Below the pieces are notes generated by a model, which saw only the letters and a list, made by a program, of their open reading frames with translations, had not been told where the DNA came from and ran no database searches. The position numbers and the translations under genes are program-made. A stretch of 64,000 nt of DNA. It comes from a virus. Where the stretch lies: IMG/VR virus record IMGVR_UViG_3300032313_001582, positions 15,725-79,724 of that record, one strand, 5' to 3'. Shown here one piece after another: positions 14,239 through 56,572 of the stretch (position 1 is its first letter; each line of letters begins with the position of its first letter).

Positions 14239-14606
14239 TGACTAAAAAACAAAAACTGGGCGATTGCTACGAAGTTGCTGGAAGGATGGCAATTTTAGGG
14301 CTTTCAAAAGCACCGAACGGAGAAAAGTTCTTAGGGAATCCTATGGTAGTCCATGGTGAAGTCGAAGGTCAGGGTAAAATCAAAGGAATACGATATGGGC
14401 ATGCATGGATTGAAGATGATGTTTATGTTTATGATTTTTCAAATGGTAGAAATTTGATGTTATTAAAAGAAGTTTATTATTATTTAGGAAAAATCATCCA
14501 AGACAAGCCAAAACTCTATAAATATACGTTCATACAAGCCAGAGAAAAGATGATTGAAACTGGTGAATACGGTCCTTGGGATTTAATAACGGAATCAGGT
14601 CTTTAA
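14238..14606 (+). CDS. Papain/transglutaminase-like Cys-His-Asp enzyme (candidate protease)
   Basis: GDCYE ... GHAWIE ... VYD, the triad order and context of the transglutaminase-like superfamily. Confidence 0.65.
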   Translation: MTKKQKLGDCYEVAGRMAILGLSKAPNGEKFLGNPMVVHGEVEGQGKIKGIRYGHAWIEDDVYVYDFSNGRNLMLLKEVYYYLGKIIQDKPKLYKYTFIQAREKMIETGEYGPWDLITESGL

Positions 14607-42131: not shown

Positions 42132-43187
42132 ATGGCAGACAATAATCCACCAGTAGGATTCGGAATTGAATCTCAAAACAACGAATCTTTCTCTCCTTTA
42201 ATGGAGAGCGTTAACCAAAAATCATACACTCGTCCGAACGTAGAGGTTTCGGATGCAACTCCTATTGAAGAACCTGTAATTGTTCCACCATCATTTGAGC
42301 AATTAGAAAGTGGTTTTCAAGCGAGTATGAATGAAAATGAAGTACCTGCTGACGATAGGAAAGTTTGGGGAGGAGATTCTGAACCATCGAGTGCAAATCC
42401 TTATGTAGAAAATTTGGATAAGAAAGACCAAAGAGTTGCAAGTTCAGCCATGGCTGATGCATTTATTGATGGTTATAGTCAACTAATGTCTTTTGCAAAT
42501 AAAATGATTCAGTTCAATATTTCAAAAGTTCAAAAAATGATTAGGGATGGTGAAATCGACCCTAATTTATTAATACCCGTTTCTGGAACTCCAATGACCA
42601 TATTGGAGTACATGCAGGAATTTAACAACCAGACAAAAGATGTAATTACGGTTACTGACGAGTTTAAGGATAAAGTAAGACCTGTGATGATTCGCGTGTT
42701 CATGAAGCGTAATATCGGCATGACTGACGAACAATTGCTTGGTTACTATTTTATAGTTGATATTGTTACGAAGGCGAGCATAGTATTTAGTATCAAGAGC
42801 CAGAATGCAGAGTTAATAAGGAGCATGAAGGAAATGAGTGCAGGTTATACCCAACCTCCTCAAGCGGTCAATACTCAAATAGAAAATCCAGCACCTGCTT
42901 CACAAACCCAAGAAAGAGTTTATGAAGAACCCAAGAAAGAACCTGAGCCCGTAGTGAATACACCCAAAAGGGAGTTTGTTGAACCAGAAGAAATTAAAAT
43001 GACGGAGGAATTCCAAGATGCAACTGTTGTAAATTCAGTAGTGAGCGAAGAACCAATAGTTCGTTCAAAAGCATCAGCAAAAATGCCAAAATTTGGAAAC
43101 GCATCTATTTTAAATCAAATGGAAGAAATTGCATCTAAAACCAATAATACTAAATCAACCCGTGGACGTAAGCGTAAAACATCATGA
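42132..43187 (+). CDS. Hypothetical protein coupled to the packaging ATPase
   Basis: 351 aa; ATGA overlap with the ATPase; acidic/Pro-rich ends, basic tail. Confidence 0.65.
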   Translation: MADNNPPVGFGIESQNNESFSPLMESVNQKSYTRPNVEVSDATPIEEPVIVPPSFEQLESGFQASMNENEVPADDRKVWGGDSEPSSANPYVENLDKKDQRVASSAMADAFIDGYSQLMSFANKMIQFNISKVQKMIRDGEIDPNLLIPVSGTPMTILEYMQEFNNQTKDVITVTDEFKDKVRPVMIRVFMKRNIGMTDEQLLGYYFIVDIVTKASIVFSIKSQNAELIRSMKEMSAGYTQPPQAVNTQIENPAPASQTQERVYEEPKKEPEPVVNTPKREFVEPEEIKMTEEFQDATVVNSVVSEEPIVRSKASAKMPKFGNASILNQMEEIASKTNNTKSTRGRKRKTS

Positions 43188-43996
43188 GAGAACCATTATT
43201 AGGTGTTGCCGTAGGGCGAAAAGGAGTTGGAAAATCATTTACAACCAATAAATTAATCGAGCAATACGTTGTTGGTAATTTGGCTTCTGGCATATTGCCA
43301 AGAAAAGCCTTGATTCTTGATGTAAACGATGAATACGAACACATCAAGGGAATTGCAGTAAAAGATTTGATTCGATTTTCTGTTCATCCCCATGTAGAAG
43401 CAAGAAGAATAAGACCTTTTCATCCAGATGGTAAGAAAATGCGATTGGATGATTTGGCTTCAACATTGAATCTTGTTCTTGAAACTTTTACTGGTGGATT
43501 ATTACTTATCGAAGATATTAATCGATTTGTTTCAGATATGATGCCACAAGATTTAATGGGGGCGATTGCTACGAATCGCCACAGGGATTTGGACATCATA
43601 CTGCATTACCAAGGTATTGGGCGTATAGGACCGAAAGTATGGCAGAATATTAACTGGCTTCGTTTTCATAAAATTACCGAAAGTGCCCAAAGACACCAAC
43701 GTAAATATGAAGATAAATACGAACTAATTAGGATTACTGAATTAATGGTTAATAAAGAATTTTTTCAAGGGAATGATAGATTCTATCAGTATGTTGATTG
43801 TGAGAACATGCGTTTAATGGGGCATGTAGATTTGGACAAGTTTGAGGAGGCGTGTAAGCAATATTTAGAAGAAAATTATCGCAAAACAATTACTCCATTA
43901 TTACAAATTCGTTCAGAAGGTAATAAAAAGAAGTGGACACACGAATCTGCTATGAAGCATGAATTGGAAAGATTGAAAAAAATGTATTTAAAGTAA
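43184..43996 (+). CDS. FtsK/HerA-superfamily genome-packaging ATPase (A32/P9-like)
   Basis: Walker A GRKGVGKS at the N-terminus, Walker B LLLIED, NRHRDLDIILHYQ (R-finger plus Q motif); 270 aa, no nuclease domain. Confidence 0.78.
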   Translation: MREPLLGVAVGRKGVGKSFTTNKLIEQYVVGNLASGILPRKALILDVNDEYEHIKGIAVKDLIRFSVHPHVEARRIRPFHPDGKKMRLDDLASTLNLVLETFTGGLLLIEDINRFVSDMMPQDLMGAIATNRHRDLDIILHYQGIGRIGPKVWQNINWLRFHKITESAQRHQRKYEDKYELIRITELMVNKEFFQGNDRFYQYVDCENMRLMGHVDLDKFEEACKQYLEENYRKTITPLLQIRSEGNKKKWTHESAMKHELERLKKMYLK

Positions 43997-44167: not shown

Positions 44168-44290
44168 ATGGAACAACTAACTCCTATCGTTAAACAAATT
44201 GGAATTTTTGTAGTCGCTTTTTTGATTGCCAATCAAATTCAAAAGGCAATCGACAAAGCCAGAACTTCAGCACCAGAAATTAAACCTTAA
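44168..44290 (+). CDS. 40-aa membrane peptide upstream of the capsid candidate, absent from the ORF track
   Basis: MEQLTPIVKQIGIFVVAFLIANQIQKAIDKARTSAPEIKP; A-rich leader. Confidence 0.65.
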   Translation: MEQLTPIVKQIGIFVVAFLIANQIQKAIDKARTSAPEIKP

Positions 44291-44318: not shown

Positions 44319-45011
44319 ATGAGTATTCGTAAATATCTAATGGATGCACAAGCGAACGCAAACGAAGGCTTCCTTGGTGCTGATGGCTTCTTTGACGATG
44401 GATACAATTTCACCGCCAATGATGATTTCATGGGAGCAGATGGCGACACTATGCCCGCCGCTGCGCCTACCTCTCAACCTTACATCATCCAAGTGGCTAA
44501 CACTGGCTCTGCCGTAAGTTCTTTCCAAATCTTGAACTCGTTCACGTTCATCAACAATGCTGGTTTCTCTAACGGAAGTTTGTCAATTGGTGACGTAACT
44601 ATTTCAAGTGCTATTCCAAACGTAACTTACCAACAGATGTTGTATCAGTTCATGAACAACCCTTATAGCGTAGGTTTGACGTACATCCAATCGGCTTCTC
44701 AGAACCAGTTATTGCAAACCATCAGCGTTTCTACGCAAGATGCGAATGGTAACTTGGCTCAAAAGCCGTTAGTGCCGACTATCGACCCATACCAGTTGCA
44801 GACTACCGTGTTAGCGATGCGTTATGGATACAAAATCGACGGTTTCACTGGTTTGATTCTTAATCAAATCTTGGCATCTACCACCGTAACCATCTACTTG
44901 TACCCAAGTGATAACATCAACTTGGCTCGTGGATTGGCAGGTCGTCCTGTTTCTCGTGAATACGGAAGCCCAGGAATCGTGCGTAGTCAACCCGTTAAGT
45001 TGGTAGGTTAA
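44319..45011 (+). CDS. Candidate major capsid protein (jelly-roll-like, beta-rich) with acidic N-terminal arm
   Basis: Downstream of the packaging ATPase; strong C-ending codon bias; alternating beta pattern; own terminator; fold not verified. Confidence 0.62.
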   Translation: MSIRKYLMDAQANANEGFLGADGFFDDGYNFTANDDFMGADGDTMPAAAPTSQPYIIQVANTGSAVSSFQILNSFTFINNAGFSNGSLSIGDVTISSAIPNVTYQQMLYQFMNNPYSVGLTYIQSASQNQLLQTISVSTQDANGNLAQKPLVPTIDPYQLQTTVLAMRYGYKIDGFTGLILNQILASTTVTIYLYPSDNINLARGLAGRPVSREYGSPGIVRSQPVKLVG

Positions 45012-45030
45012 TCCAATCCAATCAAACACG

Positions 45031-45067
45031 AAAAAGGGCGAGGCGAGTTTCGTCTTGCCCTTTTTTT
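45031..45067 (+). terminator. Rho-independent terminator
   Basis: AAAAAGGGCGAGGCGA-gtt-TCGTCTTGCCC-TTTTTTT. Confidence 0.9.
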
Positions 45068-45084
45068 ATTAAAACAAAAAATTA

Positions 45085-45495
45085 ATGAACATCTACGAAT
45101 ATATCGCACGCTCCAATCCTCAAGGGGCACGAATGGTAATTCAGCAATTCGGTTACAGAATTACTGACAATAAAAAAATGGGCGATAACCTTCGTATGTT
45201 GGTCGCACAGGAAGGTGAACCAGCATTAAGAGAAATTGCCAAATTACATCCAGATAGGGATTTGATTCTTGAAGTTTTTAACGAACCTAAAGAAGAAAAA
45301 CCATGTACTTGCAAGGATAAAAAGAAGGAAGAAAATTTCTATGGTGCTGATGCAACACTTTCAAGTGCAGTTTTAGCGAACAACCAACAACAAAATCAAG
45401 CATCAGATAGTACAAAACTCGCGATGCAAACAAATTCAATGCTATTTTTAGCAACAACTTTAATTGTAGTAGCATTAATCGTAAACAAAAAATAA
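45085..45495 (+). CDS. Tail-anchored membrane protein
   Basis: C-terminal TM + KK; FYGADA motif. Confidence 0.7.
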   Translation: MNIYEYIARSNPQGARMVIQQFGYRITDNKKMGDNLRMLVAQEGEPALREIAKLHPDRDLILEVFNEPKEEKPCTCKDKKKEENFYGADATLSSAVLANNQQQNQASDSTKLAMQTNSMLFLATTLIVVALIVNKK

Positions 45496-46478
45496 TGGCA
45501 CAAATACAATCCTCAAGTTTATACGCCATCACTGCGAAGACCATTGACACTCGTCCTAATGAAGTAATCGCTTTGATTCGTAAAAATGGTGTTATGATTC
45601 CCGATGGGGCTTCGTCACAGACCATTGACAAAGCATTTGCAACTTTAATCACTAAAAGCAAACCATTTCAACAACAATTTGCTCAATTGGCAACTAAAAC
45701 CGTAATTGAAGGAAACGCAACAATTTCTTTTGATGGTTCAGTTGGTCAAGATGGGGCATTTAAAAAATCAAATTTGATGTTTGATGGCTCAGTTGGTAAA
45801 GATGGGGCATTTAGAAATTCAAACCTCATGTTTGATGGTTCAGTTGGTCAAGATGGAGCATTTAAAAATTCAAGTTTGATGTTCGATGGTTCAGTTGCCA
45901 GAGATGGTGCATTTAAGAATTCAAATTTGTCATTTGATTCTTCGGTGGCTCAAGATGGTGCTTTCGATAATTCTAACTTGTCATTTCACGGTTCTTTGGC
46001 AAAAGATGGTGCGATGCCCATGAGTAATTTCAAGGACGTTTCAAACGAAGTAAACTTTGAAGGTTCATTCCCTATGAGTAGGTTTGATGACGTTTCAACT
46101 GAAGTTAATTTCTCTGGTGCAGGTATTGGAACTACAAGTTCTGCTCCAAAAGCACCAGCACCAATTACCTCTCCTTCAAAAAGTACTCCAACTTCAAGTG
46201 GTTCATCAAAAAAATCTGGTGCTGGATTCGGTTCATATTTTACCCCAGAGTTTGTTCAAAGTCTTTTAACAACAGGACTTGGAGTTTGGGCTTATAGCAA
46301 GACTGGTCAGACACCACAACAAGTTCAAAACAACTTGGAAGAAGGTAGAAATGACCCTGCATATAACCAGAACAATCCCCCACCAGCAAAGGGTTTAAGC
46401 ACTACTGGTGTAGTTTTAATTTCTTTGGGAGTTATTACTGCAATTGGTGTTGCCGTTTACTTCATGCGTAAAAAATAA
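45495..46478 (+). CDS. Tail-anchored membrane protein with 17-aa FDGSV repeats
   Basis: Six FDGSVxxDGAFxxSxLx units; C-terminal TM + RKK. Confidence 0.75.
   Translation: MAQIQSSSLYAITAKTIDTRPNEVIALIRKNGVMIPDGASSQTIDKAFATLITKSKPFQQQFAQLATKTVIEGNATISFDGSVGQDGAFKKSNLMFDGSVGKDGAFRNSNLMFDGSVGQDGAFKNSSLMFDGSVARDGAFKNSNLSFDSSVAQDGAFDNSNLSFHGSLAKDGAMPMSNFKDVSNEVNFEGSFPMSRFDDVSTEVNFSGAGIGTTSSAPKAPAPITSPSKSTPTSSGSSKKSGAGFGSYFTPEFVQSLLTTGLGVWAYSKTGQTPQQVQNNLEEGRNDPAYNQNNPPPAKGLSTTGVVLISLGVITAIGVAVYFMRKK
45729..46020 (+). repeat. 51-bp coding tandem repeat (about 6 units)
   Basis: Units start at 45729, 45780, 45831, 45882, 45933, 45984. Confidence 0.85.
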
Positions 46479-46481
46479 ACC

Positions 46482-46709
46482 ATGGAGAACCAGTTTCAAG
46501 AAGCCTTGGACAACATAAAGAAATTGAGCAATCAAGATGCTCACGATACTTTTGTTGAAAAATTTCGCACTTCGATTAAAGGAAGTGCGGTAGGCTTAGT
46601 TACTGGCTTACTTTATGGATGGTATTCCAAAAGGAATTTATATGTTACTGGTATTCTGGGTGCAATAGCAGGTGGAGCAATCAATTATTTCGTATTTCAA
46701 AGAGATTAA
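46482..46709 (+). CDS. Small Gly-zipper membrane protein
   Basis: Two GxxxG hydrophobic segments. Confidence 0.7.
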   Translation: MENQFQEALDNIKKLSNQDAHDTFVEKFRTSIKGSAVGLVTGLLYGWYSKRNLYVTGILGAIAGGAINYFVFQRD

Positions 46710-46710
46710 G

Positions 46711-47019
46711 ATGAAAGTAGTAGCATTAAAAGATTTAAACTTAGGTGGTATTGGAATCGTTGCAGTAACCAAAAAAAAGGGTGATGTATTTGAATTGTCA
46801 GATACACAACCCGTTGGTGGTAAAATACTATTTTACGATGAGTTCGGTACTGGTAAAAAACTTCCTTTAGTTTTAGGTACAGACATTAGTATCGTTGAAG
46901 AAAATAAAGATTCTGTTATGGATGAAGACTCGAAGCGTAAGAAACAGGGCAAATTAATTTTTTTAGGGGGTGCTTTATTATTAACCTATCTCGTATATAA
47001 AATCATAAAATCAAAATGA
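46711..47019 (+). CDS. Tail-anchored membrane protein
   Basis: Start MKVVAL; C-terminal TM + KIIKSK. Confidence 0.7.
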   Translation: MKVVALKDLNLGGIGIVAVTKKKGDVFELSDTQPVGGKILFYDEFGTGKKLPLVLGTDISIVEENKDSVMDEDSKRKKQGKLIFLGGALLLTYLVYKIIKSK

Positions 47020-47306
47020 AAATCTCAGCAGAATTTTGGATGGCAGGTATAGTTTTTTTGGTTGTGGGTTTAAAACTCGCAAACCATGAAGACAAAAAGC
47101 AGACGATTGTGGCTCAGAAAATGGGCGATGACTTGGATTTTATGGGTCGTGATGACTATTTTGCTGACATGGCAGGAGGGATAAACGTATTTAAGAAAGG
47201 CTCTAATATTACAAATGAAGATTTTGTTATTGGCAGAAATACACCACCACCCTCAATTACTTTACCACGAAAAGTTAGAATTACAAATAGAACTGAAGCC
47301 ATTTAA
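47016..47306 (+). CDS. N-anchored membrane protein
   Basis: N-terminal TM. Confidence 0.65.
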   Translation: MKISAEFWMAGIVFLVVGLKLANHEDKKQTIVAQKMGDDLDFMGRDDYFADMAGGINVFKKGSNITNEDFVIGRNTPPPSITLPRKVRITNRTEAI

Positions 47307-47317
47307 TCGATACAAAA

Positions 47318-47407
47318 ATGACAAAAACTCAAAAAGCACTGGCAACAATTTTTTTAGTTAGTGGCATTTTGTACTTTATGTTCAAAACGCCAAAAGATGA
47401 CAAATAA
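47318..47407 (+). CDS. 29-aa membrane peptide, absent from the ORF track
   Basis: MTKTQKALATIFLVSGILYFMFKTPKDDK; TAATG coupling. Confidence 0.6.
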   Translation: MTKTQKALATIFLVSGILYFMFKTPKDDK

Positions 47408-47913
47408 TGGAAAAAAACACTAAAACCATATTAATAGTGGGTGGGGCGGTAGCCGTTCTCTATTTGCTATTACGCAACAGGAAAGATACCACTCTCATTA
47501 TTGAAAAACAGGGAGAAACTGTGTTTGTGCCGACACCATCTGTGTCTACACAACCTGCAAGCACTTCTGTGACTACTTCTGGTAGTACTACTGGTTCTGG
47601 TACTGGTGCTTCTGTTAGTCAGAATTCTGGTGGATTAACAACAGATAATTTAATAAAAAATACAACAACCAATACTGGTGCTGGTGCTTCTACTGGTGTT
47701 TCAGTTGGTGCTGGAAAACAAGACCAATCGAGTGCAAGCATTCCATCTGGTGGAATCACTGGTGTAGATACGCCTACTGGTGGAGGTCAAGTTCAAGACT
47801 ATGCTCGTCCTATGACTGGAACTGCTGGTGGAAATGTAGTTGTTGCATTTGATGGGTTTATGTACTCATCCAATGGAAAAAAATTAACCTTGAATGATTT
47901 AATAAGAAACTGA
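47407..47913 (+). CDS. N-anchored Gly/Ser/Thr-rich membrane protein
   Basis: TM, low-complexity stalk, MTGTAGG..FDG C-terminus. Confidence 0.7.
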   Translation: MEKNTKTILIVGGAVAVLYLLLRNRKDTTLIIEKQGETVFVPTPSVSTQPASTSVTTSGSTTGSGTGASVSQNSGGLTTDNLIKNTTTNTGAGASTGVSVGAGKQDQSSASIPSGGITGVDTPTGGGQVQDYARPMTGTAGGNVVVAFDGFMYSSNGKKLTLNDLIRN

Positions 47914-48470
47914 TGGAAAAGAAATATATCATAGGTGCTGGTCTTGTAGCATTAGGCTTGTTCGCGTATAGCAGATACGCTAAGAAAGACGAATCTGGGC
48001 AACAAGAAGAACAAGGTGGTGGCGGTGGCGGTATTGGTGGTGGCGGTTTTGGAGGTGCTTTTGTAAATCCAATTACAAATCAACCAACAACACCTTCAGC
48101 CCCTTCAACTCCTGCAAAAGTTGGTATTACTCCAGTGACGATTAAAAATCCAACGATTCTGAAGAATTTAGGTGCTGGTACACCAACCGCGGCTACGACA
48201 TCATCAACTGGTGCTGGGGCACAATCTGGCGTTACGATGCCAACTGGTGGTATTAAACCAGTTGTTAGAACTGGAAGTTCAAGTACATCTTCTTCTGGTA
48301 TTGGAAATACGGGTGTTGGTGTAACTAACACTGGTAATATTTCAGGCGTAGGTTCAACCATGACTGGAACTGCTGGTGGAACTGTATTTAAACCTTTCGA
48401 TGGATGCGAGCCAAACAGAAGAAGAACTCTCTTTCTTAGTGACCTTGTAAGGTCTTGGAATAGACCATAA
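47913..48470 (+). CDS. N-anchored Gly/Ser/Thr-rich membrane protein (paralog of the upstream gene)
   Basis: Same layout and shared MTGTAGG..FDG..L.DL.R C-terminus. Confidence 0.7.
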   Translation: MEKKYIIGAGLVALGLFAYSRYAKKDESGQQEEQGGGGGGIGGGGFGGAFVNPITNQPTTPSAPSTPAKVGITPVTIKNPTILKNLGAGTPTAATTSSTGAGAQSGVTMPTGGIKPVVRTGSSSTSSSGIGNTGVGVTNTGNISGVGSTMTGTAGGTVFKPFDGCEPNRRRTLFLSDLVRSWNRP

Positions 48471-48481
48471 AAAATAACAAT

Positions 48482-48655
48482 ATGCCATACAAAGTAAAAA
48501 TTCGTAATAAGGATATTTTTGATGAAACCTTTACAACAGAAACATCCGCAAAGCAAGCGAAATATTTCGCGATAATTGGTGCAAAAAACAATAGAGGTGC
48601 TTTTCGTGTCATGGATGCAAAAATTGTAAAAGTGGCTAAAGCCAAAAAGAAATAA
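48482..48655 (+). CDS. 57-aa basic protein, absent from the ORF track
   Basis: MPYKVKIRNK...KVAKAKKK fills the gap; A-rich leader. Confidence 0.55.
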   Translation: MPYKVKIRNKDIFDETFTTETSAKQAKYFAIIGAKNNRGAFRVMDAKIVKVAKAKKK

Positions 48656-48676
48656 TCAACTTAAATTTTCAAATAT

Positions 48677-48946
48677 ATGTTAAGCGCAAACGCAATGTAC
48701 AAGCAATCGGGTTCAACCTTATCATTTAAGGACTGGCTTGAAAGAGAAAAAAACAAAGGACAATTCATACCTAACATTCAAGCACAAATGGAATTTGAAA
48801 ACGCTGATGGGTCACAAACTGCCCAAGAAGATATTAAGGGTGCTGGTCAATTAGAAATTGGCAGTATCATTGGTAAAAACCTTTTAATAACTCTTGCTAT
48901 TGTTGCTGGAGGTGTTCTAATTTATCGATATTACAAGAATAAATGA
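48677..48946 (+). CDS. Tail-anchored membrane protein
   Basis: FENADG motif; C-terminal TM + YRYYKNK. Confidence 0.7.
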   Translation: MLSANAMYKQSGSTLSFKDWLEREKNKGQFIPNIQAQMEFENADGSQTAQEDIKGAGQLEIGSIIGKNLLITLAIVAGGVLIYRYYKNK

Positions 48947-49155
48947 CGCTGACTAAAAAGCAAATAACGAATGGTTTTATTGCGTTGGGTGTAATCATGT
49001 TGATTTACGCTAACAGAGGTTCTTTGCATCCAAACAAAAAGCCTTTAAACGCAAAAGAAGATTCTGACGATGCTATTGATAGAGCCATTAGTAAATTAAA
49101 GTCGGGTGGTGTTGCCGTAAAATCAACTCCAGAAGAGGTAAAAGAGAGCGTATGA
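48943..49155 (+). CDS. N-anchored membrane protein
   Basis: N-terminal TM. Confidence 0.65.
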   Translation: MTLTKKQITNGFIALGVIMLIYANRGSLHPNKKPLNAKEDSDDAIDRAISKLKSGGVAVKSTPEEVKESV

Positions 49156-49940
49156 AGTACAGGATAACAATTGATTATGCACCGATTACCCTCAACGTCA
49201 AGGTAAAAACCGATACTCCAGAAAAACTTCATCTGGTTGTTTACGATGCGTGTTGCCCAGACATCAAATTCACAGAGAGATACAAGACTATCACTGGAGA
49301 TGAAACATTCTATGTAAGAATGCCGATTTCACCAGAGGTTGCCATCGTTGAAGTTTATGGCGACAAGACAGGTAGAGGTGTTAAAAACGCAGATGAGAAG
49401 AATTTCAAAATAGTTTCAGTGGAGAAAACCCCTTTGGAGCGTAGAATCGATATGGATGATATTGGAAATGCTCAAATTCGTTCTTTTGTTGATTTTGCAC
49501 AAAGGTTTTCATATAATGTTTCGAATCTGAAGCCAGATACTACTTACTCCAGCGATGACAATCAGTATTTTATCTTGCTGAGTGAAACCATTCGCGGAAA
49601 CAACGGACAAGAGTTAACAACTCCAGCCAGAGTAGGTCGTAACACGGGAATAATTCAAGTTTCAAAACAAGCGTTTACCAAAATGACCGTACCGATGCGT
49701 ATGGCTATTTTGTTGCACGAATTCAGTCACTTCTATTTAAACGAAAAGATTGATGATGAAATGGAAGCGGATTTGAATGGTCTTCTAATTTATCTTTCTT
49801 TGGGATACCCAAGGATTGAAGCATATCAAGCATTTTTGGAAACCTTTAAAGAAAGACCAAATAACCTGAATAAAGCCAGATACGATTTGATAAACAAATT
49901 TATCAATGATTTTGAAAAAATGAACATGGTAATCAAGTAA
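49152..49940 (+). CDS. Zinc metallopeptidase (HExxH, gluzincin-like)
   Basis: ILLHEFSH followed by EMEAD. Confidence 0.7.
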   Translation: MKYRITIDYAPITLNVKVKTDTPEKLHLVVYDACCPDIKFTERYKTITGDETFYVRMPISPEVAIVEVYGDKTGRGVKNADEKNFKIVSVEKTPLERRIDMDDIGNAQIRSFVDFAQRFSYNVSNLKPDTTYSSDDNQYFILLSETIRGNNGQELTTPARVGRNTGIIQVSKQAFTKMTVPMRMAILLHEFSHFYLNEKIDDEMEADLNGLLIYLSLGYPRIEAYQAFLETFKERPNNLNKARYDLINKFINDFEKMNMVIK

Positions 49941-50308
49941 TGGATAAAAGAATCGAAATAGCAGGAAAAGTTTTGCTCGTAGGCTCGGTTGCTTATTTGA
50001 TAGCAAAGATTTACAAACAGGTTAATGATGGTGTAGGTTTGTTTTTGTCCCAAGCAAAGATGGGTGAATATGTCATGACGAGTCAGTACGGAATGAATAA
50101 GCCAATGACTAAAGAGAAATACTATGAAATAACCAAAAATGCTGAAGGTAAAAACGTAAGTTTTGTAAATGCTTGGAAACAATTGGACAAAGAATATGCA
50201 AACGCATATTACAAAGCAGTATGGAGAGCAACCAAGGGAAAAGGTTCAGATACGTTTAAGGTGGGAGATGTTGAATATCTCACCAAGGGTGGACGGAAAA
50301 AGACTTAA
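49940..50308 (+). CDS. N-anchored membrane protein
   Basis: N-terminal TM; ends LTKGGRKKT. Confidence 0.65.
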   Translation: MDKRIEIAGKVLLVGSVAYLIAKIYKQVNDGVGLFLSQAKMGEYVMTSQYGMNKPMTKEKYYEITKNAEGKNVSFVNAWKQLDKEYANAYYKAVWRATKGKGSDTFKVGDVEYLTKGGRKKT

Positions 50309-50319
50309 CTAAGAGAAGT

Positions 50320-50478
50320 ATGACTAACAATTCCAGAAATATTGCAATAATAGTAGGCACTTTAGTAGTTGCTGGTGGACTTGCTTATTGGTTTTACAAT
50401 TATCAAGTTAAATTGTTGAATTTGAATACTTTGAGTCCAGAGTATACAAAAGAACTTGAAAACATAACGATGGAATGA
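50320..50478 (+). CDS. 52-aa membrane protein, absent from the ORF track
   Basis: MTNNSRNIAIIVGTLVVAGGLAYWFY... Confidence 0.65.
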   Translation: MTNNSRNIAIIVGTLVVAGGLAYWFYNYQVKLLNLNTLSPEYTKELENITME

Positions 50479-50479
50479 T

Positions 50480-51259
50480 ATGGCAAATTGGAAAATCAAA
50501 GTGCCACAAGGTACTTATAAATCGGACAGAACAATATCTCAAAGCATCGCTGAATTACAAAAAGCGAAAACTGCCTCTGGTAAAGAGTTAAAAGAAATTT
50601 CGGAGTTTTATAGTTTACCATTTTACTTGGTGTTTGCGGTTGCAACTTTGGAAAGTGGTGGTCAGTCGATAAGGTCTTTTGATGGCTTGTCTTATGGGGT
50701 AATGCAAACAAATGCTGAAACAATGGATGGAGTCATTAAAGAAGTTTTTAAGCAAGGAATGACTATGGGTAAATTCTATCCATTGTACTTAGATATAAAG
50801 CCATTATTCACTTTGAAAAAACCTATACCTGCAAATTTTTGGGATAATAGTAATATTGCTTTAAGACAAGAGCCAGCAAGTAATTTTTTAAGATATAAAG
50901 GTTGGGAGGCTTGGAAAAATACCAAATCTACTTACAATCAAAAAATGATGACTAATAAGCCTTTTGCAATTCGAGTTGGTGTTTTGTTTTTAAGACAATT
51001 GATAGGTGATTCATTAGAAAAAGTTGGACAAGATGTTTATTTAAGAATGGACTGGGTAATCAAAGGATATAACATGGGGTATTATTCATTGAAGTTCGGA
51101 ATTTTGAATAAGCCACAAAATAGAGCCTTGGATTCTAATGCTTTGATTATCAGACCAGATTTAATAAATCAAAGATACACGAAGCCATATATACAAAGAA
51201 TTGGAGGTATAAATGGTTACTTAGATTTAATCAAGCAGGGTAAATTTAAATTGTCATAA
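50480..51259 (+). CDS. Lytic transglycosylase (SLT-like)
   Basis: AVATLESGG (catalytic E-S), GVMQ, GYNMG (AYNxG-like). Confidence 0.78.
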   Translation: MANWKIKVPQGTYKSDRTISQSIAELQKAKTASGKELKEISEFYSLPFYLVFAVATLESGGQSIRSFDGLSYGVMQTNAETMDGVIKEVFKQGMTMGKFYPLYLDIKPLFTLKKPIPANFWDNSNIALRQEPASNFLRYKGWEAWKNTKSTYNQKMMTNKPFAIRVGVLFLRQLIGDSLEKVGQDVYLRMDWVIKGYNMGYYSLKFGILNKPQNRALDSNALIIRPDLINQRYTKPYIQRIGGINGYLDLIKQGKFKLS

Positions 51260-51282
51260 AAATTAATTAAATTTGATAGCAA

Positions 51283-51741
51283 ATGGCAGTAACAACTTGG
51301 AATACCGTACCTAATTATGACGAATGGGGAAGTGATACCTATTGGTCATGTGAAGATTGGATTCAATACCATAAATTATTAAAACAACATTTCGGTGAGG
51401 AAAGGGCAAAATACATCTGGGAATTTGCTTATGGTCAAGGAACAGATGGTGCTTCTCACTGGGATTGCCGTACATCTAATAATGCATTCAGAAAATACGC
51501 AAGTTCAGAGAAATTAAACATGTATTCCAGTGCTGGGTTGTTCTCAATCATTTTGAAACCAGTAGGCGTTGGTTTTGACATAGTGAATGACACATCTGAT
51601 GCAATCAGTGGAATATCAAGTGACATAGCGGATTTTTTTAATTCAGACAATGTAAGCCCAATTAAAGTTCTTCTTTGGGGAACAACTTTCATTGCTCTGG
51701 GTTTTGTAGGGTACAAAGCATATCAGTACACGAAAAAATGA
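51283..51741 (+). CDS. Tail-anchored membrane protein
   Basis: Trp/Cys N-domain; C-terminal TM + KK; TAAATTTG element at 51268. Confidence 0.7.
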   Translation: MAVTTWNTVPNYDEWGSDTYWSCEDWIQYHKLLKQHFGEERAKYIWEFAYGQGTDGASHWDCRTSNNAFRKYASSEKLNMYSSAGLFSIILKPVGVGFDIVNDTSDAISGISSDIADFFNSDNVSPIKVLLWGTTFIALGFVGYKAYQYTKK

Positions 51742-51932
51742 TGCCTAAAATACAAATATCGGAAAACACTCAGAAAGTCCTTTTATGGGGTTCTGTGGCT
51801 CTGCTTGTAGGTATCACTATCGTTGTGGTGAAAAACAAGAGAGATAAGAAAGTTCGCCTTGAAAATGAAAGCAAAGGTCTTCAAAAAGAATATGAAAATT
51901 TGTTAACAAGAATAGATAAAGCACCAAAATAA
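51738..51932 (+). CDS. Small N-anchored membrane protein
   Basis: Start MMPKIQ; TM then coiled coil. Confidence 0.65.
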   Translation: MMPKIQISENTQKVLLWGSVALLVGITIVVVKNKRDKKVRLENESKGLQKEYENLLTRIDKAPK

Positions 51933-52534
51933 TGAGCAATAAATGGATATATCCCGTTTTAGGTATCGGAATTGCTTCCGCTATTGTTTATGTGTTTGTA
52001 TTTAAGAAAGACAAGTCTTACGAACCACCTCCAGCACCAAATCCAGAAGATATTGACCCAGATTCTGGTTTGACTTATGCTCAAGCAACTATTGACCCTA
52101 CAATATTGATTTACTTGCAACCATCTCAAAATCAACAAAACGCGAGTAATATCTATGAATCTGGTCCAGCAAAAGGAAAAAGGATTTTTACTAACAACAG
52201 AATTAAGGGCAAAAAAATATCCACCAAAGTTGATGCCGTAAAATTACGCTCTTATGCTCATGTAAATAATGGGTTTATTAATAATATCGTTGCAGAAGTA
52301 GGACAAGACGTTGTTTTGGGGGATGCACAATTCGTAACGAGTGAAGTTGATTTAATTAATGGGGCAAAAGGAATTACCATGAATCCAAAGACAAAAGAAC
52401 CATATAAGTGGGTAAATATTACTCTGTCCGATTCGACAACTGATTTAATAAACAAAGGTAAAAGTTGGTATCAACCAGATTTGCCAAAAGGCAAAACAGT
52501 GTATGCAAGGGAGGACACTATAAAAATCGTTTAA
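51932..52534 (+). CDS. N-anchored protein with SH3b-like domain
   Basis: TM, Pro linker, VKLRS...WVNI...YAREDTI pattern. Confidence 0.55.
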   Translation: MSNKWIYPVLGIGIASAIVYVFVFKKDKSYEPPPAPNPEDIDPDSGLTYAQATIDPTILIYLQPSQNQQNASNIYESGPAKGKRIFTNNRIKGKKISTKVDAVKLRSYAHVNNGFINNIVAEVGQDVVLGDAQFVTSEVDLINGAKGITMNPKTKEPYKWVNITLSDSTTDLINKGKSWYQPDLPKGKTVYAREDTIKIV

Positions 52535-52535
52535 A

Positions 52536-53096
52536 ATGAAAAAGTTAACTGATATAAAACTGACTCAGAACCAAAAGTACGCTTTATACTTTGGTGGTGC
52601 AGTAGTAGGTACATACATAATTATTCAAATCATCAAAGCCATTCAAAAAGGTGGCGATAAAGGTGAAAATAAAGGTGCAGGTATTAAGACACAAGTTGTC
52701 TTTACCGATAAGTATTTGTCTGGTCTTCCTTTGGGGGTAGATAATTTGACATGGGCTTCTAAAGTTCCCACAAAGTATTTACCAAGTTTTGATGCAATAG
52801 GATTATCAAAAACAGATTCTGTTTTTAAAGCAAAAGCCGAAAGAATTCAAAAACTTTTGAATCAAAGGATGGAGGCATCTTATGATGGTTATCCAGCGTT
52901 AGTAGTTGATGGACAAATTGGTGCAGAAACTACAAAAGCCATGATTAAAATTGCCAAAGACTATGGCAAACTCGATGAACTTGTACCTCTTAAAACCAAA
53001 GATGACCTTGAAAAATGGGCAGTCTTTTTTGGTATTAAAAATGATTCCACAACAAATGAAGAAACAAATCCTTTCCCTTGGATGGGCTTAAAATAA
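52536..53096 (+). CDS. N-anchored protein with peptidoglycan-binding domain
   Basis: IQKLLN...VDGQIGAETTKAM (PG_binding_1-like). Confidence 0.65.
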   Translation: MKKLTDIKLTQNQKYALYFGGAVVGTYIIIQIIKAIQKGGDKGENKGAGIKTQVVFTDKYLSGLPLGVDNLTWASKVPTKYLPSFDAIGLSKTDSVFKAKAERIQKLLNQRMEASYDGYPALVVDGQIGAETTKAMIKIAKDYGKLDELVPLKTKDDLEKWAVFFGIKNDSTTNEETNPFPWMGLK

Positions 53097-53102
53097 AAAG
53101 AA

Positions 53103-53669
53103 ATGGAAATTGATATTTTTTACACAAACGATGATATGAGTTTTGGCTTTGATGGCAAAGAAAATAAGTTTGCTTCAAAAGTCCAAGGTGGATTTTGCGA
53201 TACCGATTATTCGTATTTAAGTGGTGGTTTTCCAGCAAGCGGATTTGATACCACATCAGACAATGTGAATGCACTTGGTCGCGAAGCCCAAGTCGAAAGT
53301 TGGTTTTCTTTGGATGAAAAAGAAAAAACTAATTGTGCGATTTTGGAAAGCAAAATTGAAGGTCTTAAAAAGGCAATCAAAGAAAATCAAACTAAACTTT
53401 TAACTGTAAAAGGTGGAGAGAAAAGAGTCACCGAAGACTATTTGAATCTTTACCAACGCAGATTAAATTTTTTCGAAGGATTGTATGCTGACGCGAAATG
53501 TGAAGAAAGTAAAATCGCAGAAGAAGAATCAAAACTTCAAGGGTTGTTATCTCAATTAACTTCTGGGGAAGAAAAAGACAAAATGGGTAAAATCGTTCTT
53601 ATTGGCGGAGTTGCCGTTGTTTTGGGAGTAATAGGTTTAATCATTTATAAAAAAAGTAAAGCATCATGA
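53103..53669 (+). CDS. Tail-anchored coiled-coil protein
   Basis: FGFDG N-terminus, helical body, C-terminal TM + KKSK. Confidence 0.7.
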   Translation: MEIDIFYTNDDMSFGFDGKENKFASKVQGGFCDTDYSYLSGGFPASGFDTTSDNVNALGREAQVESWFSLDEKEKTNCAILESKIEGLKKAIKENQTKLLTVKGGEKRVTEDYLNLYQRRLNFFEGLYADAKCEESKIAEEESKLQGLLSQLTSGEEKDKMGKIVLIGGVAVVLGVIGLIIYKKSKAS

Positions 53670-54607
53670 ACATAAATAATCAATTAGGATTGGCAACGCA
53701 TCCAATTCCTGTTTACAATAAAAGTATTGACCAACAACTTGGATTTATCGGTACGGATGGTCAGGGTATCATGTTTAATGCCGATGGTGGCGAGTATTGG
53801 GCTTCAAAGGCAACACCTAACTATTCAGATGATAATCTAATTATGTTAAACGAGGATAGCACATTCTTAAACGCAGGTGGTCAAGATGGTAATTGGCGTA
53901 ATGATAGAAGATATTATGTTGGCGATGAAAGTAGTGTTGATTTTGAGTTAGACACTCTCCGCATCAGAGATAAATCAACGGGTAAAATTATTACTAACGA
54001 TTTGAAATATGTCCAATCTAAAATTGAAAAATACGCATTAGAATCCGATAATTTGAAAAATAGGTTGGAAGGAACAGAATTAGATGTCACGACAACTCAG
54101 TATACTACTAATTCACAAAAGAATCAAAACCGAGCGCTTGCAAACCAACAAAAATGGGTTAAAGATAGACTCGTAAGCAGATTAAGGGATATTTTAAAAG
54201 ATTTGGAAATTGCTCAAGAAAAAGCCTTAGCGTTAAAAGCCAAAGCGGATTCAGATGCAAAAATTAAAGCAGACAATGATGCGTTTGCAAAAGCAAAATC
54301 TTCAAATACAATAGTTGCTTACACTGAATATTTGAAGAACTTTCCCGAAGGTTTGTCAGTAGACAAGGCAAATAAATCTATTGATGACATCAGAAAAGCC
54401 GAAAAAATCAAGGCTCTGGAAAATCAAAAAGCCAATGCTACTCCCGAAGAGAAAAAGCGTATTGACGCTGAAATAGATGCAATTTTGGGTGTTGATTCAG
54501 GAACTACGGGTACTGTGGCAACCAGAATGTTTCTTTACGGAGGAATTGCTTTGGTAGCGGTGTATGGTCTTTACAAAGTATTTAAAGGAAACTCCGCTTC
54601 AGCCTAA
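53666..54607 (+). CDS. Tail-anchored coiled-coil protein
   Basis: FNADGG/FLNAGG N-terminus, long helix, C-terminal TM. Confidence 0.7.
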   Translation: MNINNQLGLATHPIPVYNKSIDQQLGFIGTDGQGIMFNADGGEYWASKATPNYSDDNLIMLNEDSTFLNAGGQDGNWRNDRRYYVGDESSVDFELDTLRIRDKSTGKIITNDLKYVQSKIEKYALESDNLKNRLEGTELDVTTTQYTTNSQKNQNRALANQQKWVKDRLVSRLRDILKDLEIAQEKALALKAKADSDAKIKADNDAFAKAKSSNTIVAYTEYLKNFPEGLSVDKANKSIDDIRKAEKIKALENQKANATPEEKKRIDAEIDAILGVDSGTTGTVATRMFLYGGIALVAVYGLYKVFKGNSASA

Positions 54608-55825: not shown

Positions 55826-56572
55826 ATGCCAGTTGTCAGTAGAAGTACACCAAACAATATACTTGTAGTAGCCCCAAACGGCTTGGCGATATTCGTAAAT
55901 GACAACAACGGAGTTCTTTCATTAAAAGATTGGGCAGGAAATGTACAACCTGTTTCCGATTATATTAGTGGTGGTGGTGGAAGTGGTATAACGAGCATTA
56001 ACGCTTTGAATGCGGTAGCCCAGTTCATGGTAACTGGTTCTGCTGGAAACGATTTTAATATTGTTTCTGCTGGTGCAACTCATACTTTTAACATCCCTTC
56101 AGCAAGTACATCAGCGAGAGGTCTTGTTACCACAGGGGCTCAAACTTTCGCTGGGATAAAGACATTTAATGAAAACGCGAATTTTAATGCCGATGTAGAC
56201 GTGGTTGGTACTTTGACCGCGACTGCAAAATCATTTTTGATTCCACACCCAGACACAAGTAAGTTTGGATGGATGCTTCAACATGGTAACTTAGAAGGAC
56301 CTGAACATGCAGTTTATTTCCGTGGAAAACTGGATGATTCAAATTCAATTAATTTGCCACCCTACTGGAAGTTTCTTGTAGATGAAGACACTATTTCAGT
56401 AACTTTGACTCCAATTGGTTCATACCAACAATTATATATTACAGATGTTAACGCCCAATATGTTGAAATTAAAGAAAATAGCGATAAGAAGATTAGTTGC
56501 TATTACATGGTTTATGCGGAGCGCAAAGACATCGACAAATTGTTGGTCGAACATGCTCCCATAGAATCATGA
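55826..56572 (+). CDS. Fibre/spike protein with C-terminal chaperone-like domain
   Basis: GAQTFAGIKTF fibre motif; KSFLIPHP..LEGPE..YFRG..AERKD C-domain typical of phage fibres. Confidence 0.6.
   Translation: MPVVSRSTPNNILVVAPNGLAIFVNDNNGVLSLKDWAGNVQPVSDYISGGGGSGITSINALNAVAQFMVTGSAGNDFNIVSAGATHTFNIPSASTSARGLVTTGAQTFAGIKTFNENANFNADVDVVGTLTATAKSFLIPHPDTSKFGWMLQHGNLEGPEHAVYFRGKLDDSNSINLPPYWKFLVDEDTISVTLTPIGSYQQLYITDVNAQYVEIKENSDKKISCYYMVYAERKDIDKLLVEHAPIES

What the first reader, a model, noticed from the sequence alone, without database searches (positions are those of the whole stretch)
44319..53900. Related F-x(0-3)-D-G / ADG motif recurs across the capsid candidate and membrane proteins
Seen: the capsid candidate's N-arm has FLGADG and FMGADG just before the beta domain. 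Other instances are FYGADA (45085), repeated FDG (45495), AFDG (47407), PFDG (47913), FENADG (48677), FGFDG (53103), and FNADGG and FLNAGG (53666). FNADGG bridges to the polyprotein MADGG linker. Inference: one recognition code (maturation cleavage site or capsid-lattice docking peptide) is shared by structural proteins and cargo, and the first ~41 aa of the capsid protein may be a propeptide.
Basis: partly seen in the sequence, partly recalled or inferred. Interest (0 to 1): 0.7.

Follow-up and report, generated by a model that had tools for sequence, protein, structure and literature searches.

The report
Shared peptide motif in virion proteins
A six-residue motif (aromatic-x-N/G/S-A-D/N-G) recurs in the flexible parts of the jelly-roll coat protein and of at least seven small membrane proteins of an uncultivated, apparently tailless virus. 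It is conserved across a very large family that always encodes a zinc protease in the same gene block, so it is most likely a particle-maturation or particle-targeting signal.

Summary
All listed instances are present, and the motif is enriched well beyond chance. F-x(0-3)-D-G sites number 14 in 8 of 22 block proteins, against 2.7 expected. A matrix trained only on distant coat-protein homologs hits the block about 10 times more densely than the rest of the genome. In 35 related viral loci the density is 1.37 per 1000 residues downstream of the coat gene and 0.10 upstream.

Both motifs in the coat protein's N-terminal arm are conserved across 111 homologs at about 26-79% identity. They lie in a disordered segment ahead of a confidently modelled jelly roll.

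A soluble HExxH protein (49152-49940) is present in every related locus that reaches that far, and in one distant locus. Its predicted catalytic domain resembles M48 metallopeptidases.

The proposed bridge to the polyprotein linkers fails. The strict linker [FYM]-A-x-G-G occurs 37 times in the polyvalent proteins and never in the structural block. These are two separate codes.

Best reading (0.45): cleavage or recognition sites for the module's zincin, including removal of the coat protein's N-arm. Main rival (0.3): a docking peptide that is not cut. Neither cleavage nor binding is shown.

First-stage readers noted the same motif on related genomes earlier in this scan.

The parts
44319..45011 (+). 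230-aa probable coat (capsid) protein. N-arm residues 1-48, single jelly roll about residues 50-215, then a C-terminal arm.
   Evidence: AF2 model has pLDDT 87.7, with the jelly roll above 90. VIA Z is 5-6.5 to viral jelly rolls: GFLV, the PR772 chain 6q5u_O, FLiP, PBCV-1 and PM2. There are 1323 homologs and 572 clusters at 50% identity.
44370..44387 (+). Motif copy 1 in the coat N-arm (FLGADG, residues 18-23).
   Evidence: In 111 homologs the columns read [FY] 82, [NSG] 92, [AF] 74, [DN] 74 and G 87. pLDDT is below 50 at residues 19-26.
44427..44444 (+). Motif copy 2 in the coat N-arm (FMGADG, residues 37-42), about 10 residues before the first strand of the jelly roll.
   Evidence: In 111 homologs the columns read A 89, [DN] 64 and [GA] 87.
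45337..45354 (+). Motif (FYGADA) in the tail-anchored 136-aa protein 45085-45495. It lies between the helical N-domain with its Cys-rich linker and the C-terminal TM helix.
   Evidence: The motif is present at the same position in all 34 distinct orthologs examined. The TM helix is at residues 115-133.
45726..46124 (+). Tandem motif-bearing units (…FDGSVGxDGAF…) in the tail-anchored 327-aa protein 45495-46478.
   Evidence: A 51-bp tandem repeat spans 45729-46012. Orthologs carry one canonical copy here, for example FSNANG, FVGANADG, FLGMSG or FFNAGG. The distant locus L049 has LLSADG at the same relative position.
47139..47177 (+). Weaker, degenerate copies (FMGRDD, FADMAG) in the N-anchored 96-aa protein 47016-47306.
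   Evidence: This protein ranks second among non-coat hits of an HMM built from the coat N-arm, but the hit is not significant (E 0.37).
47842..47859 (+). AFDG near the C-terminus of the N-anchored, low-complexity 168-aa protein 47407-47913.
   Evidence: Its paralog or ortholog family keeps F-[DSA]-G at this position.
48390..48407 (+). KPFDG near the C-terminus of the 185-aa protein 47913-48470.
   Evidence: Orthologs carry KPFDG, KPFSG or DFAG.
48794..48811 (+). FENADG in the tail-anchored 89-aa protein 48677-48946, between the conserved N-domain and the TM helix.
   Evidence: The motif is kept as F-x-N-A-D-G in the closest clade. It is variable or lost in several other lineages.
49152..49940 (+). 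Soluble 262-aa HExxH protein: an N-terminal beta-sandwich plus an M48-like catalytic domain. It is the candidate protease.
   Evidence: H189, E190, H193, E203, E205 and D207 are invariant in 29 sequences. The AF2 model has pLDDT 89. The top VIA hit is BepA/YfgC with Z 8.5, followed by 3c37, Ste24 and ZMPSTE24 at Z 6.2-6.8. The gene is present in 33 of 33 related loci that reach it and in the distant locus L049 (E 1e-65).
53139..53156 (+). SFGFDG at residues 13-18 of the tail-anchored protein 53103-53669, which looks helical or coiled-coil from its sequence (not modelled).
   Evidence: Orthologs carry SFGFTG, SFGMDG or FYSLDG at the same N-terminal position.
53771..53881 (+). MFNADG (16.6 bits) and FLNAGG (14.3 bits) in the N-terminal part of the tail-anchored 313-aa protein 53666-54607.
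   Evidence: Orthologs carry FLSADG, YFNASG or YFDATG.
43184..43996 (+). P-loop ATPase next to the coat gene. It is the probable packaging ATPase and is given for context.
   Evidence: Similarity is weak and below threshold: DUF87/HerA E 1.8e-4 and phrog_2666 E 1.4e-4. It is conserved at 46-84% identity in all related loci.

Best explanation
The motif [FYW]-x-[NGS]-[A or hydrophobic]-[DNST]-G is a short linear recognition signal of the particle-assembly module. Most likely it marks sites where the co-encoded soluble M48-like zinc metallopeptidase (49152-49940) recognises and cuts virion precursors during maturation.

Under this reading, the two copies in the coat protein's disordered N-arm would allow removal of about 23-42 N-terminal residues, comprising a conserved helix and an acidic, aromatic peptide. 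The copies in tail-anchored and N-anchored membrane proteins would trim these proteins or release their soluble parts. The tandem copies in the 45495 protein would chop it into small fragments. The peptide may also serve first as a targeting signal, so that proteins dock and are then cut.

Shown here: the motif exists, it is specific to the module, it is conserved and it lies in flexible segments. The zincin has conserved catalytic-type residues and always accompanies the motif.

Inferred: that the zincin is active, that it recognises this motif, and that cleavage happens at all.
For: 1. The motif is specific to the module and conserved across protein families that have no other detected similarity (pairwise check).
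2. Both N-arm copies are about as conserved as many core positions across 111 homologs at roughly 26-79% identity. They sit in a low-pLDDT segment just ahead of the jelly roll.
3. The HExxH protein has invariant H, E, H plus E203, E205 and D207. Its best structural match is an M48 peptidase, with Z 8.5 to BepA and Z 6.2-6.8 to three further M48 entries.
4. No other protease family was detected in the genome.
5. The zincin occurs in all 33 related loci that reach it. It also occurs in the distant locus L049, where the coat protein (WLSADG) and the next tail-anchored gene (WHNASG, LLSADG) still carry the motif.
6. Precedent: in T4 and the SPN3US/phiKZ phages a short consensus recurs in many head proteins and is the prohead-protease site. 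Multiple sites within one propeptide are normal there, and the T4 targeting peptides (CTS) are cut off after they have acted (PMC5694885). From my own knowledge, adenovirus protease sites behave the same way.
7. The hydrophobic residues at motif positions 1 and 4 fit the hydrophobic P1' preference common among zincins. This rests on established knowledge and was not tested here.
Against: There is no direct evidence of cleavage, such as mature N-termini or proteomics. The zincin has no Pfam, PHROG or PDB sequence match, and its fold match is only middling (Z 8.5). The motif comes and goes in the 48677 family, which is unexpected for an essential processing site. Some copies lie within about 10-20 residues of a terminus, for example in the 53103 family and at L012:12712, where cutting would remove very little. 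The zincin could instead serve the polyvalent proteins or another role. Aromatic and acidic flanks and tandem amplification fit a multivalent binding peptide equally well.
Confidence: 0.45

Rival explanations
1. The motif is a docking peptide that is not cut. It would be a short linear motif that tethers membrane proteins, and the coat protein's own arm, to a common hub. The hub could be the underside of the jelly-roll lattice or an assembly factor such as the conserved 351-aa protein 42132-43187. This would link the internal membrane to the shell and recruit proteins into the particle.
For: The motif always lies in the non-membrane parts of tail-anchored or N-anchored proteins. It is often at the tip far from the membrane (53103 family, residues 13-18) or shortly after the TM helix. 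In L012:12712 it sits at residues 4-9 of a Gly/Ser/Thr-rich repetitive protein without a TM helix, which looks like an anchoring peptide. Copies are tandemly amplified, both in the 51-bp repeat and as 3-5 W/F-x-x-A-D units in some coat N-arms, which suits avidity. Gain and loss in the 48677 family is typical of linear binding motifs. Flanks are acidic and aromatic.
Against: If the shell were the receptor, the coat protein's own two copies would compete with the cargo. No receptor has been identified. This reading leaves the ever-present zincin in the module without a role. Precedent for the same motif on both the shell protein and many other virion proteins points to protease sites.
Confidence: 0.3
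2. One protease code is shared by structural proteins and the polyvalent cargo proteins.
For: A subset of linkers reads M/F/Y-A-D-G-G, which contains ADG. Both motif classes start with a large hydrophobic residue and are rich in small residues. Only one recognisable protease candidate was seen by fold.
Against: The strict linker [FYM]-A-x-G-G occurs 37 times in polyproteins, 0 times in the block and 0 times elsewhere. The block motif matrix hits polyproteins at background rate, 0.16 against 1.55 per 1000 aa. The linkers need G-G and have the hydrophobic residue directly before A, and the middle residue is K as often as D. The block motif rarely has G after its final G (7 of 111).
Confidence: 0.1
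3. The motif is a structural, metal-binding or modification element, for example a turn, a Ca-binding loop, an N-glycosylation sequon or an Asn/Asp-Gly succinimide site, and not a protein-recognition signal.
For: Many relatives read N-A-S/T-G, which contains the N-x-S/T sequon, and the genome carries a large glycosyltransferase set. D-G and N-G are chemically labile. N-A-D-G resembles part of an EF-hand loop.
Against: Position 3 is G or S in many copies and position 5 is D in most. Copies such as FLGADG therefore have no sequon. S, T, G or A at position 5 rule out a general succinimide mechanism. Position 1 of an EF-hand loop must be a ligand residue, but here it is aromatic. What is invariant is aromatic, small, Ala or hydrophobic, and Gly, which describes a recognition shape.
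Confidence: 0.1
4. The recurrence is a chance or compositional effect of low-complexity, Gly/Asp-rich membrane-protein linkers.
For: Four of the hits come from a single tandem repeat.
Against: Within-protein shuffles never reach the observed counts. DG alone is not enriched between gene groups. A matrix trained on other genomes' coat proteins recovers the block proteins. The pattern repeats in 35 loci and in a distant one. The motif is positionally conserved in orthologs.
Confidence: 0.03

Closest known systems
Prohead-protease consensus sites of T4 (gp21, L/I-x-E) and of the giant phages phiKZ and SPN3US (A/S/G-x-E), together with the T4 capsid targeting sequences
   Same: A short consensus recurs in the major capsid protein's N-terminal propeptide and in many unrelated head proteins. 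Several sites can occur within one propeptide. Targeting peptides are removed after use. The protease gene lies in the head module (PMC5694885).
   Different: Those are tailed phages with HK97-fold capsids and serine proteases, and the motif ends in Glu. Here the coat protein is a jelly roll, the virus has no detected tailed-phage genes, the motif is aromatic-x-N-A-D-G, and the candidate enzyme is an M48-like zincin. Cleavage is not shown.
Adenovirus protease (adenain) sites (M/I/L)-X-G-G|X and (M/I/L)-X-G-X|G, and the ASFV/poxvirus G-G-X and A-G-X sites
   Same: These are jelly-roll-lineage viruses in which one consensus marks several virion precursor proteins for maturation cleavage, often near termini. 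This comparison rests on my own knowledge.
   Different: The enzymes there are clan CE cysteine proteases and the sites need Gly at P2/P1. The block motif has no G-G. It is the polyvalent-protein linkers of this genome, not the block motif, that resemble G-G sites.
M48 zinc metallopeptidases (BepA/YfgC, HtpX, Ste24/ZMPSTE24)
   Same: The 262-aa protein has an HExxH helix with a downstream acidic ligand candidate. The predicted fold of residues ~107-256 matches BepA at Z 8.5 and Ste24 and ZMPSTE24 at Z 6.2-6.7. M48 enzymes typically act on membrane-associated substrates.
   Different: There is no sequence-level match to Pfam Peptidase_M48 or to any PDB chain. The protein is soluble, is much shorter than Ste24, and has an extra N-terminal beta-sandwich.
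Encapsulin cargo-loading peptides and similar encapsulation peptides
   Same: A short conserved peptide in a disordered terminus or linker of unrelated proteins directs them to the inside of a protein shell. This comparison rests on my own knowledge.
   Different: In encapsulins the shell protein does not itself carry the peptide, and the peptide is not cut. Here the shell candidate carries two copies, and no binding site is known.

Membership tests
Virion maturation-protease site systems (T4 gp21, phiKZ/SPN3US, adenain type) | One short consensus recurs in several unrelated virion or morphogenesis proteins and is rare elsewhere in the genome. | tested here: met
   Density is 10-14 times higher in the block, and 8 of 22 block proteins carry the motif.
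Virion maturation-protease site systems (T4 gp21, phiKZ/SPN3US, adenain type) | A protease gene lies within the morphogenesis module and co-occurs with the motif. | tested here: met
   An HExxH protein with invariant catalytic-type residues and an M48-like predicted fold. It is present in 33 of 33 loci that reach it and in the distant locus L049. Enzyme activity was not tested.
Virion maturation-protease site systems (T4 gp21, phiKZ/SPN3US, adenain type) | Sites lie in propeptides or linkers outside the folded domains. | tested here: met
   The coat N-arm has pLDDT 47-61 over residues 11-40, ahead of a jelly roll at pLDDT above 90. Other copies lie between a domain and a TM helix or near termini. 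Disorder was modelled only for the coat protein.
Virion maturation-protease site systems (T4 gp21, phiKZ/SPN3US, adenain type) | Mature virion proteins begin or end at the motif, demonstrating cleavage. | not testable with these tools
   This needs virion proteomics or N-terminal sequencing. No isolate is known, and there is no match among 50,697 GenBank phage records.
M48 / minigluzincin metallopeptidases (for the protein at 49152-49940) | An HExxH zinc-binding helix. | tested here: met
   HEFSH at residues 189-193 is invariant in 29 sequences and is kept as HEFSH in L049.
M48 / minigluzincin metallopeptidases (for the protein at 49152-49940) | A third zinc ligand (Glu) on a downstream helix. 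| tested here: inconclusive
   E203, E205 and D207 are invariant and lie at the start of helix 203-216. Which residue, if any, is the ligand was not resolved.
M48 / minigluzincin metallopeptidases (for the protein at 49152-49940) | A sequence-profile match to the family. | tested here: not met
   No Pfam or PHROG family matched at E <= 0.1, and there is no PDB sequence match. It is therefore filed as 'M48-like fold' and not as a family member.
M48 / minigluzincin metallopeptidases (for the protein at 49152-49940) | The catalytic-domain fold. | tested here: inconclusive
   The top VIA hit is BepA, with Z 8.5, rmsd 3.9 and 114 aligned residues. Three more M48 entries score Z 6.2-6.8. Foldseek found nothing at E <= 0.001.
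G-G-type polyprotein linker sites of this genome's polyvalent proteins ([FYM]-A-x-G-G) | A hydrophobic residue directly before Ala, and G-G at the end. | tested here: not met
   There are 0 matches in the structural block against 37 in the polyproteins. The block motif is a different class.
Cargo-loading or capsid-targeting peptides | A short conserved peptide in disordered parts of unrelated proteins destined for the particle. | tested here: met
Cargo-loading or capsid-targeting peptides | The peptide binds a defined site on the shell or scaffold. | not testable with these tools
   This needs binding assays or structures.
Single jelly-roll viral capsid proteins (for the protein at 44319-45011) | A jelly-roll beta-sandwich fold. 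| tested here: met
   The AF2 model is strand-rich over residues 50-215 at pLDDT above 90. Best matches are viral jelly rolls at Z 5-6.5. Which capsid family it belongs to, and whether it is the major capsid protein or a vertex protein, remains inconclusive.

The most novel reading that the evidence does not exclude
The motif is the core of a 'dock, then cut' code specific to a vast uncultivated lineage of jelly-roll viruses that appear to contain a membrane. An acidic, aromatic peptide ending in aromatic-x-N-A-D-G first recruits the coat protein and a set of membrane proteins to the assembling particle. It is then removed by a dedicated M48-like metalloprotease. To my knowledge this would be the first maturation-protease system of this type described for tailless prokaryotic jelly-roll viruses. 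It would act alongside a second, separate G-G linker code for the packaged polyvalent proteins.
Probability: 0.25. Interest if true: 0.8.

Novelty: new variant of a known kind. Interest (0 to 1): 0.6.

Why it matters
To my knowledge, no maturation protease or shared processing or targeting code has been described for tailless, membrane-containing prokaryotic viruses. The coat protein here belongs to a very large, unnamed family. It has 1323 close homologs and 572 clusters at 50% identity, on contigs up to about 100 kb, and no match among 50,697 GenBank phage records.

A six-residue signal conserved across that family gives three things:
- a concrete handle on how these particles assemble
- a prediction of which small membrane proteins belong to the virion
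- simple experiments, such as zincin plus reporter substrate, motif mutants, or searching lake metaproteomes for semi-tryptic peptides at the motif

The work also separates two codes in one genome, the structural motif and the G-G linkers of the polyvalent proteins. That corrects the unified model and sharpens the question of which enzyme serves which code.

Tried and rejected
- **Complex prediction**. Chains were the zincin, the coat jelly roll (residues 46-230) and residues 62-112 of the 45085 protein as partner. The verdict was 'no answer' (score 0.00, controls not run). It is not evidence either way.
The planned test, whether motif-less coat paralogs come from genomes without the zincin, could not be run that way.
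- **The search for related loci failures.** The alignment of the motif-less subgroup had no usable conserved stretch. P0201, P0212 and P0200 found nothing in viral contigs. The P0132 search returned ordinary family loci.
- **Motif-less subgroup.** It turned out to consist of extra paralogs in genomes that also hold the normal coat gene. It does not give a clean presence/absence contrast.
- **Other motif readings considered and rejected**, because the variable positions do not fit: N-glycosylation sequon, EF-hand-like Ca loop and Asn/Asp-Gly succinimide chemistry.
- **DNA-level repeat or cassette origin** rejected, because the codons differ. The 51-bp array is the exception.
- **The 351-aa protein 42132-43187 as a double jelly-roll capsid protein.** It has no family hit. 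Its conserved consensus looks helical by eye. No secondary-structure prediction or model was made, so this stays an inference.
- **HMM of the whole coat N-arm against the window's proteins.** Block proteins rank at the top, but none is individually significant (E 0.36-2.9).
- **Sequence searches with no match.** The coat family and the ATPase against the PDB gave nothing meaningful. The phage collection gave no match. Foldseek on the zincin model found nothing at E <= 0.001.
- **Host assignment.** Only two short contigs turned up in MAG bins (Bathyarchaeia, Planktophila), plus a Woesebacteria-labelled MAG contig. These are probably binning artefacts. The host stays unknown.
- **Literature searches** found no description of this virus group or of the motif.

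Full report
**Setting**

The window is bases 15725-79724 of a 79,724-bp IMG/VR virus record estimated at 94% complete. All long ORFs are on the + strand and GC is about 35%. No HK97-type capsid, portal or terminase family was detected among the proteins scanned with Pfam and, for a subset, PHROGs.

The block at 42-56 kb holds the following genes:
- a conserved 351-aa protein with no family match
- a P-loop ATPase with weak, sub-threshold HerA/DUF87 similarity
- a 230-aa protein at 44319-45011
- about twenty small proteins, most with a single N- or C-terminal membrane helix
- a soluble HExxH protein at 49152-49940

Upstream lie large polyvalent proteins with ART-PolyVal, zeta-toxin and GNAT domains. 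Glycosyltransferase and methyltransferase genes sit near both ends of the window.

**The coat candidate**

The 230-aa protein has 1323 homologs at E <= 0.001 in the 90% database. It has 572 clusters in the 50% database. There is no match in 50,697 GenBank phage records.

An AlphaFold2 model built on 111 diverse homologs has mean pLDDT 87.7. It shows a helix at residues 3-16, a low-confidence segment up to about residue 48, and then a beta-sandwich at pLDDT above 90. The best structural matches are viral jelly rolls at Z 5-6.5, including grapevine fanleaf virus, the PR772 chain 6q5u_O, FLiP, PBCV-1 and PM2. Scores at this level show the fold but not a specific family.

I treat it as the probable major coat protein. 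The grounds are its fold, its position next to the ATPase, its conservation and its abundance. A vertex role is not excluded.

Yes.

Counting DG preceded by F within four residues gives 14 sites in 8 of 22 block proteins. Within-protein shuffles give a mean of 2.7, and 0 of 1000 reach 14. Density is 4.05 per 1000 aa, against 0.65 in non-polyprotein genes.

The pattern was defined after looking at the data, so I built an independent test. A six-column matrix was trained only on the two N-arm motifs of coat homologs, leaving out the query and its six closest relatives. At 10 bits or more it finds 5 sites in the 3,223 aa of block proteins other than the coat protein. It finds 1 in 6,147 aa of polyproteins and 2 in 15,328 aa of everything else. 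Shuffles give a mean of 0.45, and 0 of 500 reach 5.

In 35 related viral loci the same matrix gives 118 hits in 86,335 aa downstream of the coat gene and 10 hits in 104,992 aa upstream. The loci are related, so this is replication across a family and not 35 independent trials.

The codons differ among the window's instances. The exception is a 51-bp tandem repeat at 45729-46012, which multiplies the unit in the 45495 protein.

**Conservation**

In the 111-sequence coat alignment (about 26-79% identity to the query), the columns are as follows:

| Motif | Column counts out of 111 |
|---|---|
| Motif 1 | [FY] 82, x, [NSG] 92, [AF] 74, [DN] 74, G 87 |
| Motif 2 | A 89, [DN] 64, [GA] 87, preceded by aromatic or hydrophobic residues |

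This is comparable to many positions inside the jelly roll.

Other families behave as follows:
- 45085 family: the motif sits at the same place in all 34 distinct orthologs, after a helical N-domain and a Cys-rich linker and 20-30 residues before the C-terminal membrane helix.
- 45495 family: orthologs have one canonical copy where the window has the tandem array.
- 53103, 53666 and 47913 families: the motif is kept in position.
- 48677 family: the motif is kept in the nearest clade but is variable or lost elsewhere.

Related genomes carry further copies just after N-terminal membrane helices. One copy sits at residues 4-9 of a Gly/Ser/Thr-rich repetitive protein.

In a distant locus (L049, coat protein about 35% identical) the coat arm reads WLSADG followed by W-Q-G-A-D repeats. 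The next tail-anchored gene there carries WHNASG and LLSADG.

The consensus is [FYW]-x-[NGS]-[A, less often F/M/L/V]-[D, less often N/S/T/G]-G, usually with acidic residues just before it.

**The protease candidate**

The 262-aa protein at 49152-49940 has HEFSH at residues 189-193, plus E203, E205 and D207. All of these are invariant in 29 sequences. It has no Pfam, PHROG or PDB sequence match.

Its model has pLDDT 89. It shows an N-terminal beta-sandwich at residues 1-96 and a helical domain. The best structural match of the helical domain is the M48 peptidase BepA/YfgC, with Z 8.5 and 114 aligned residues. Three further M48 entries follow at Z 6.2-6.8. Foldseek found nothing at E <= 0.001. 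I call it an M48-like zincin and not a family member.

The gene is present in all 33 related loci that extend far enough and in L049 (E 1e-65). No other protease family was detected in the genome. A first-stage note proposes a small Cys-His-Asp enzyme at 14238-14606. That protein has no Pfam hit, and I did not test it further.

**The bridge to the polyprotein linkers fails**

The polyvalent proteins are punctuated by [FYM]-A-x-G-G, often in doublets. The strict pattern occurs 37 times in them and never in the structural block or elsewhere. The middle residue is K as often as D.

Conversely, the block matrix hits polyproteins only at background rate. The residue after the block motif's final Gly is Gly in only 7 of 111 coat sequences.

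These are two codes with mutually exclusive distributions. If the G-G linkers are cleavage sites, they may have their own enzyme. G-G specificity is typical of cysteine proteases, which I state from my own knowledge. Which enzyme serves which code is open.

**Mechanism**

Three facts need explaining:
- a six-residue shape motif in flexible parts of the coat protein and of many unrelated membrane proteins
- strict confinement of that motif to the morphogenesis block
- an ever-present zincin in the block

In well-characterised systems known to me where a short consensus recurs in the capsid protein's N-terminal extension and in many other virion proteins, the consensus is the maturation-protease site. 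Examples are T4 and phiKZ/SPN3US (PMC5694885) and, from my own knowledge, adenovirus. That paper also notes that multiple sites within one propeptide are normal and help clear fragments. It further notes that T4 targeting peptides act first and are then cut off.

I therefore rank 'recognition and cleavage site for the module's zincin, possibly after a targeting role' first, at 0.45. A docking peptide that is never cut is the main rival, at 0.30. It is favoured by motif copies at the membrane-distal tips of tail-anchored proteins, by the N-terminal copy on the Gly/Ser/Thr-rich repetitive protein, by acidic and aromatic flanks, and by evolutionary gain and loss. It is disfavoured because the shell candidate itself carries two copies and because it leaves the zincin unexplained.

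Sequon, Ca-loop and succinimide readings do not fit the variable positions. Chance is excluded by the conservation data. Nothing here shows cleavage or binding.

**Novelty and standing**

A consensus site shared across virion proteins is a known kind of system. The setting is what is new:
- a jelly-roll coat protein in an uncultivated, apparently tailless virus family
- a motif not described in the papers I could search
- a metallopeptidase of M48-like fold as the candidate enzyme

First-stage readers of this scan saw the same motif next to an HExxH gene in related genomes (e1-6048726, e1-6048734). A follow-up agent described a relative as a large tailless-type lake virus (e1-6055695). My tests agree with these notes and extend them, but the notes were not used as evidence.

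The host is unknown. Coat-gene contigs appear in MAG bins of unrelated phyla, which looks like mis-binning.

Noticed in passing
window 10609-36931 (polyvalent proteins): The strict linker [FYM]-A-x-G-G occurs 37 times in these proteins and nowhere else in the genome. It often forms six-residue doublets such as Y-A-K-G-G followed by x-M-A-D-G-G. It is a separate code from the structural-block motif.
   Followed up: partly
L023:6634-7287 and L028:7580-8161: Two related genomes carry a second paralog of the jelly-roll protein close to the ATPase gene. In L023 it lies directly upstream and overlaps the ATPase start. The paralog has a basic amphipathic N-terminus in place of the acidic motif-bearing arm, and a different C-terminus. 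The window's genome has only one copy.
   Followed up: partly
proteins P0129 (397 aa) and P0174 (411 aa); L049:1659-3242 (527 aa): Some family members are natural tandem fusions. In P0129 and P0174 the family HMM matches its jelly-roll region twice in one polypeptide, giving double-jelly-roll-like proteins without the N-arm motif. The 527-aa protein next to the coat gene in a distant locus also matches the coat-family HMM (E 5.8e-24).
   Followed up: partly
window 44168-44290: A 40-aa single-TM ORF lies directly upstream of the coat gene. It is conserved in 10 of the 11 first-round related loci (38-95% identity), which suggests a two-gene unit.
   Followed up: no
window 45085-45495 and orthologs: In most relatives the 45085 family has a Cys cluster (C-G-C-x-x-C or similar) in the linker just before the motif. 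The window's copy has only C-T-C.
   Followed up: no
window 49152-49439 (zincin residues 1-96): The zincin has an N-terminal beta-sandwich that resembles carbohydrate-binding, GOLD and pre-peptidase C-terminal domains (Z 7-8). It may bind substrate or the particle.
   Followed up: no
window 55826-56572: A 248-aa protein has strong matches to two PHROG families of unknown function (E 4e-38 and 3e-37) and a Gly-rich N-terminal part. It may be a spike or fibre component at the end of the block.
   Followed up: no
L047, L048 (genome contigs) and P0212: Contigs carrying the coat gene sit in MAG bins labelled Bathyarchaeia, Planktophila and Woesebacteria. These are short contigs in unrelated phyla, probably binning artefacts. 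They give no host assignment.
   Followed up: no
window 47407-48470: Two adjacent N-anchored paralogs have long Gly/Ser/Thr-rich low-complexity regions, one including a Gly run with a 15-bp repeat at 48020-48057. Each ends in F-D-G about 20 residues from the C-terminus.
   Followed up: partly
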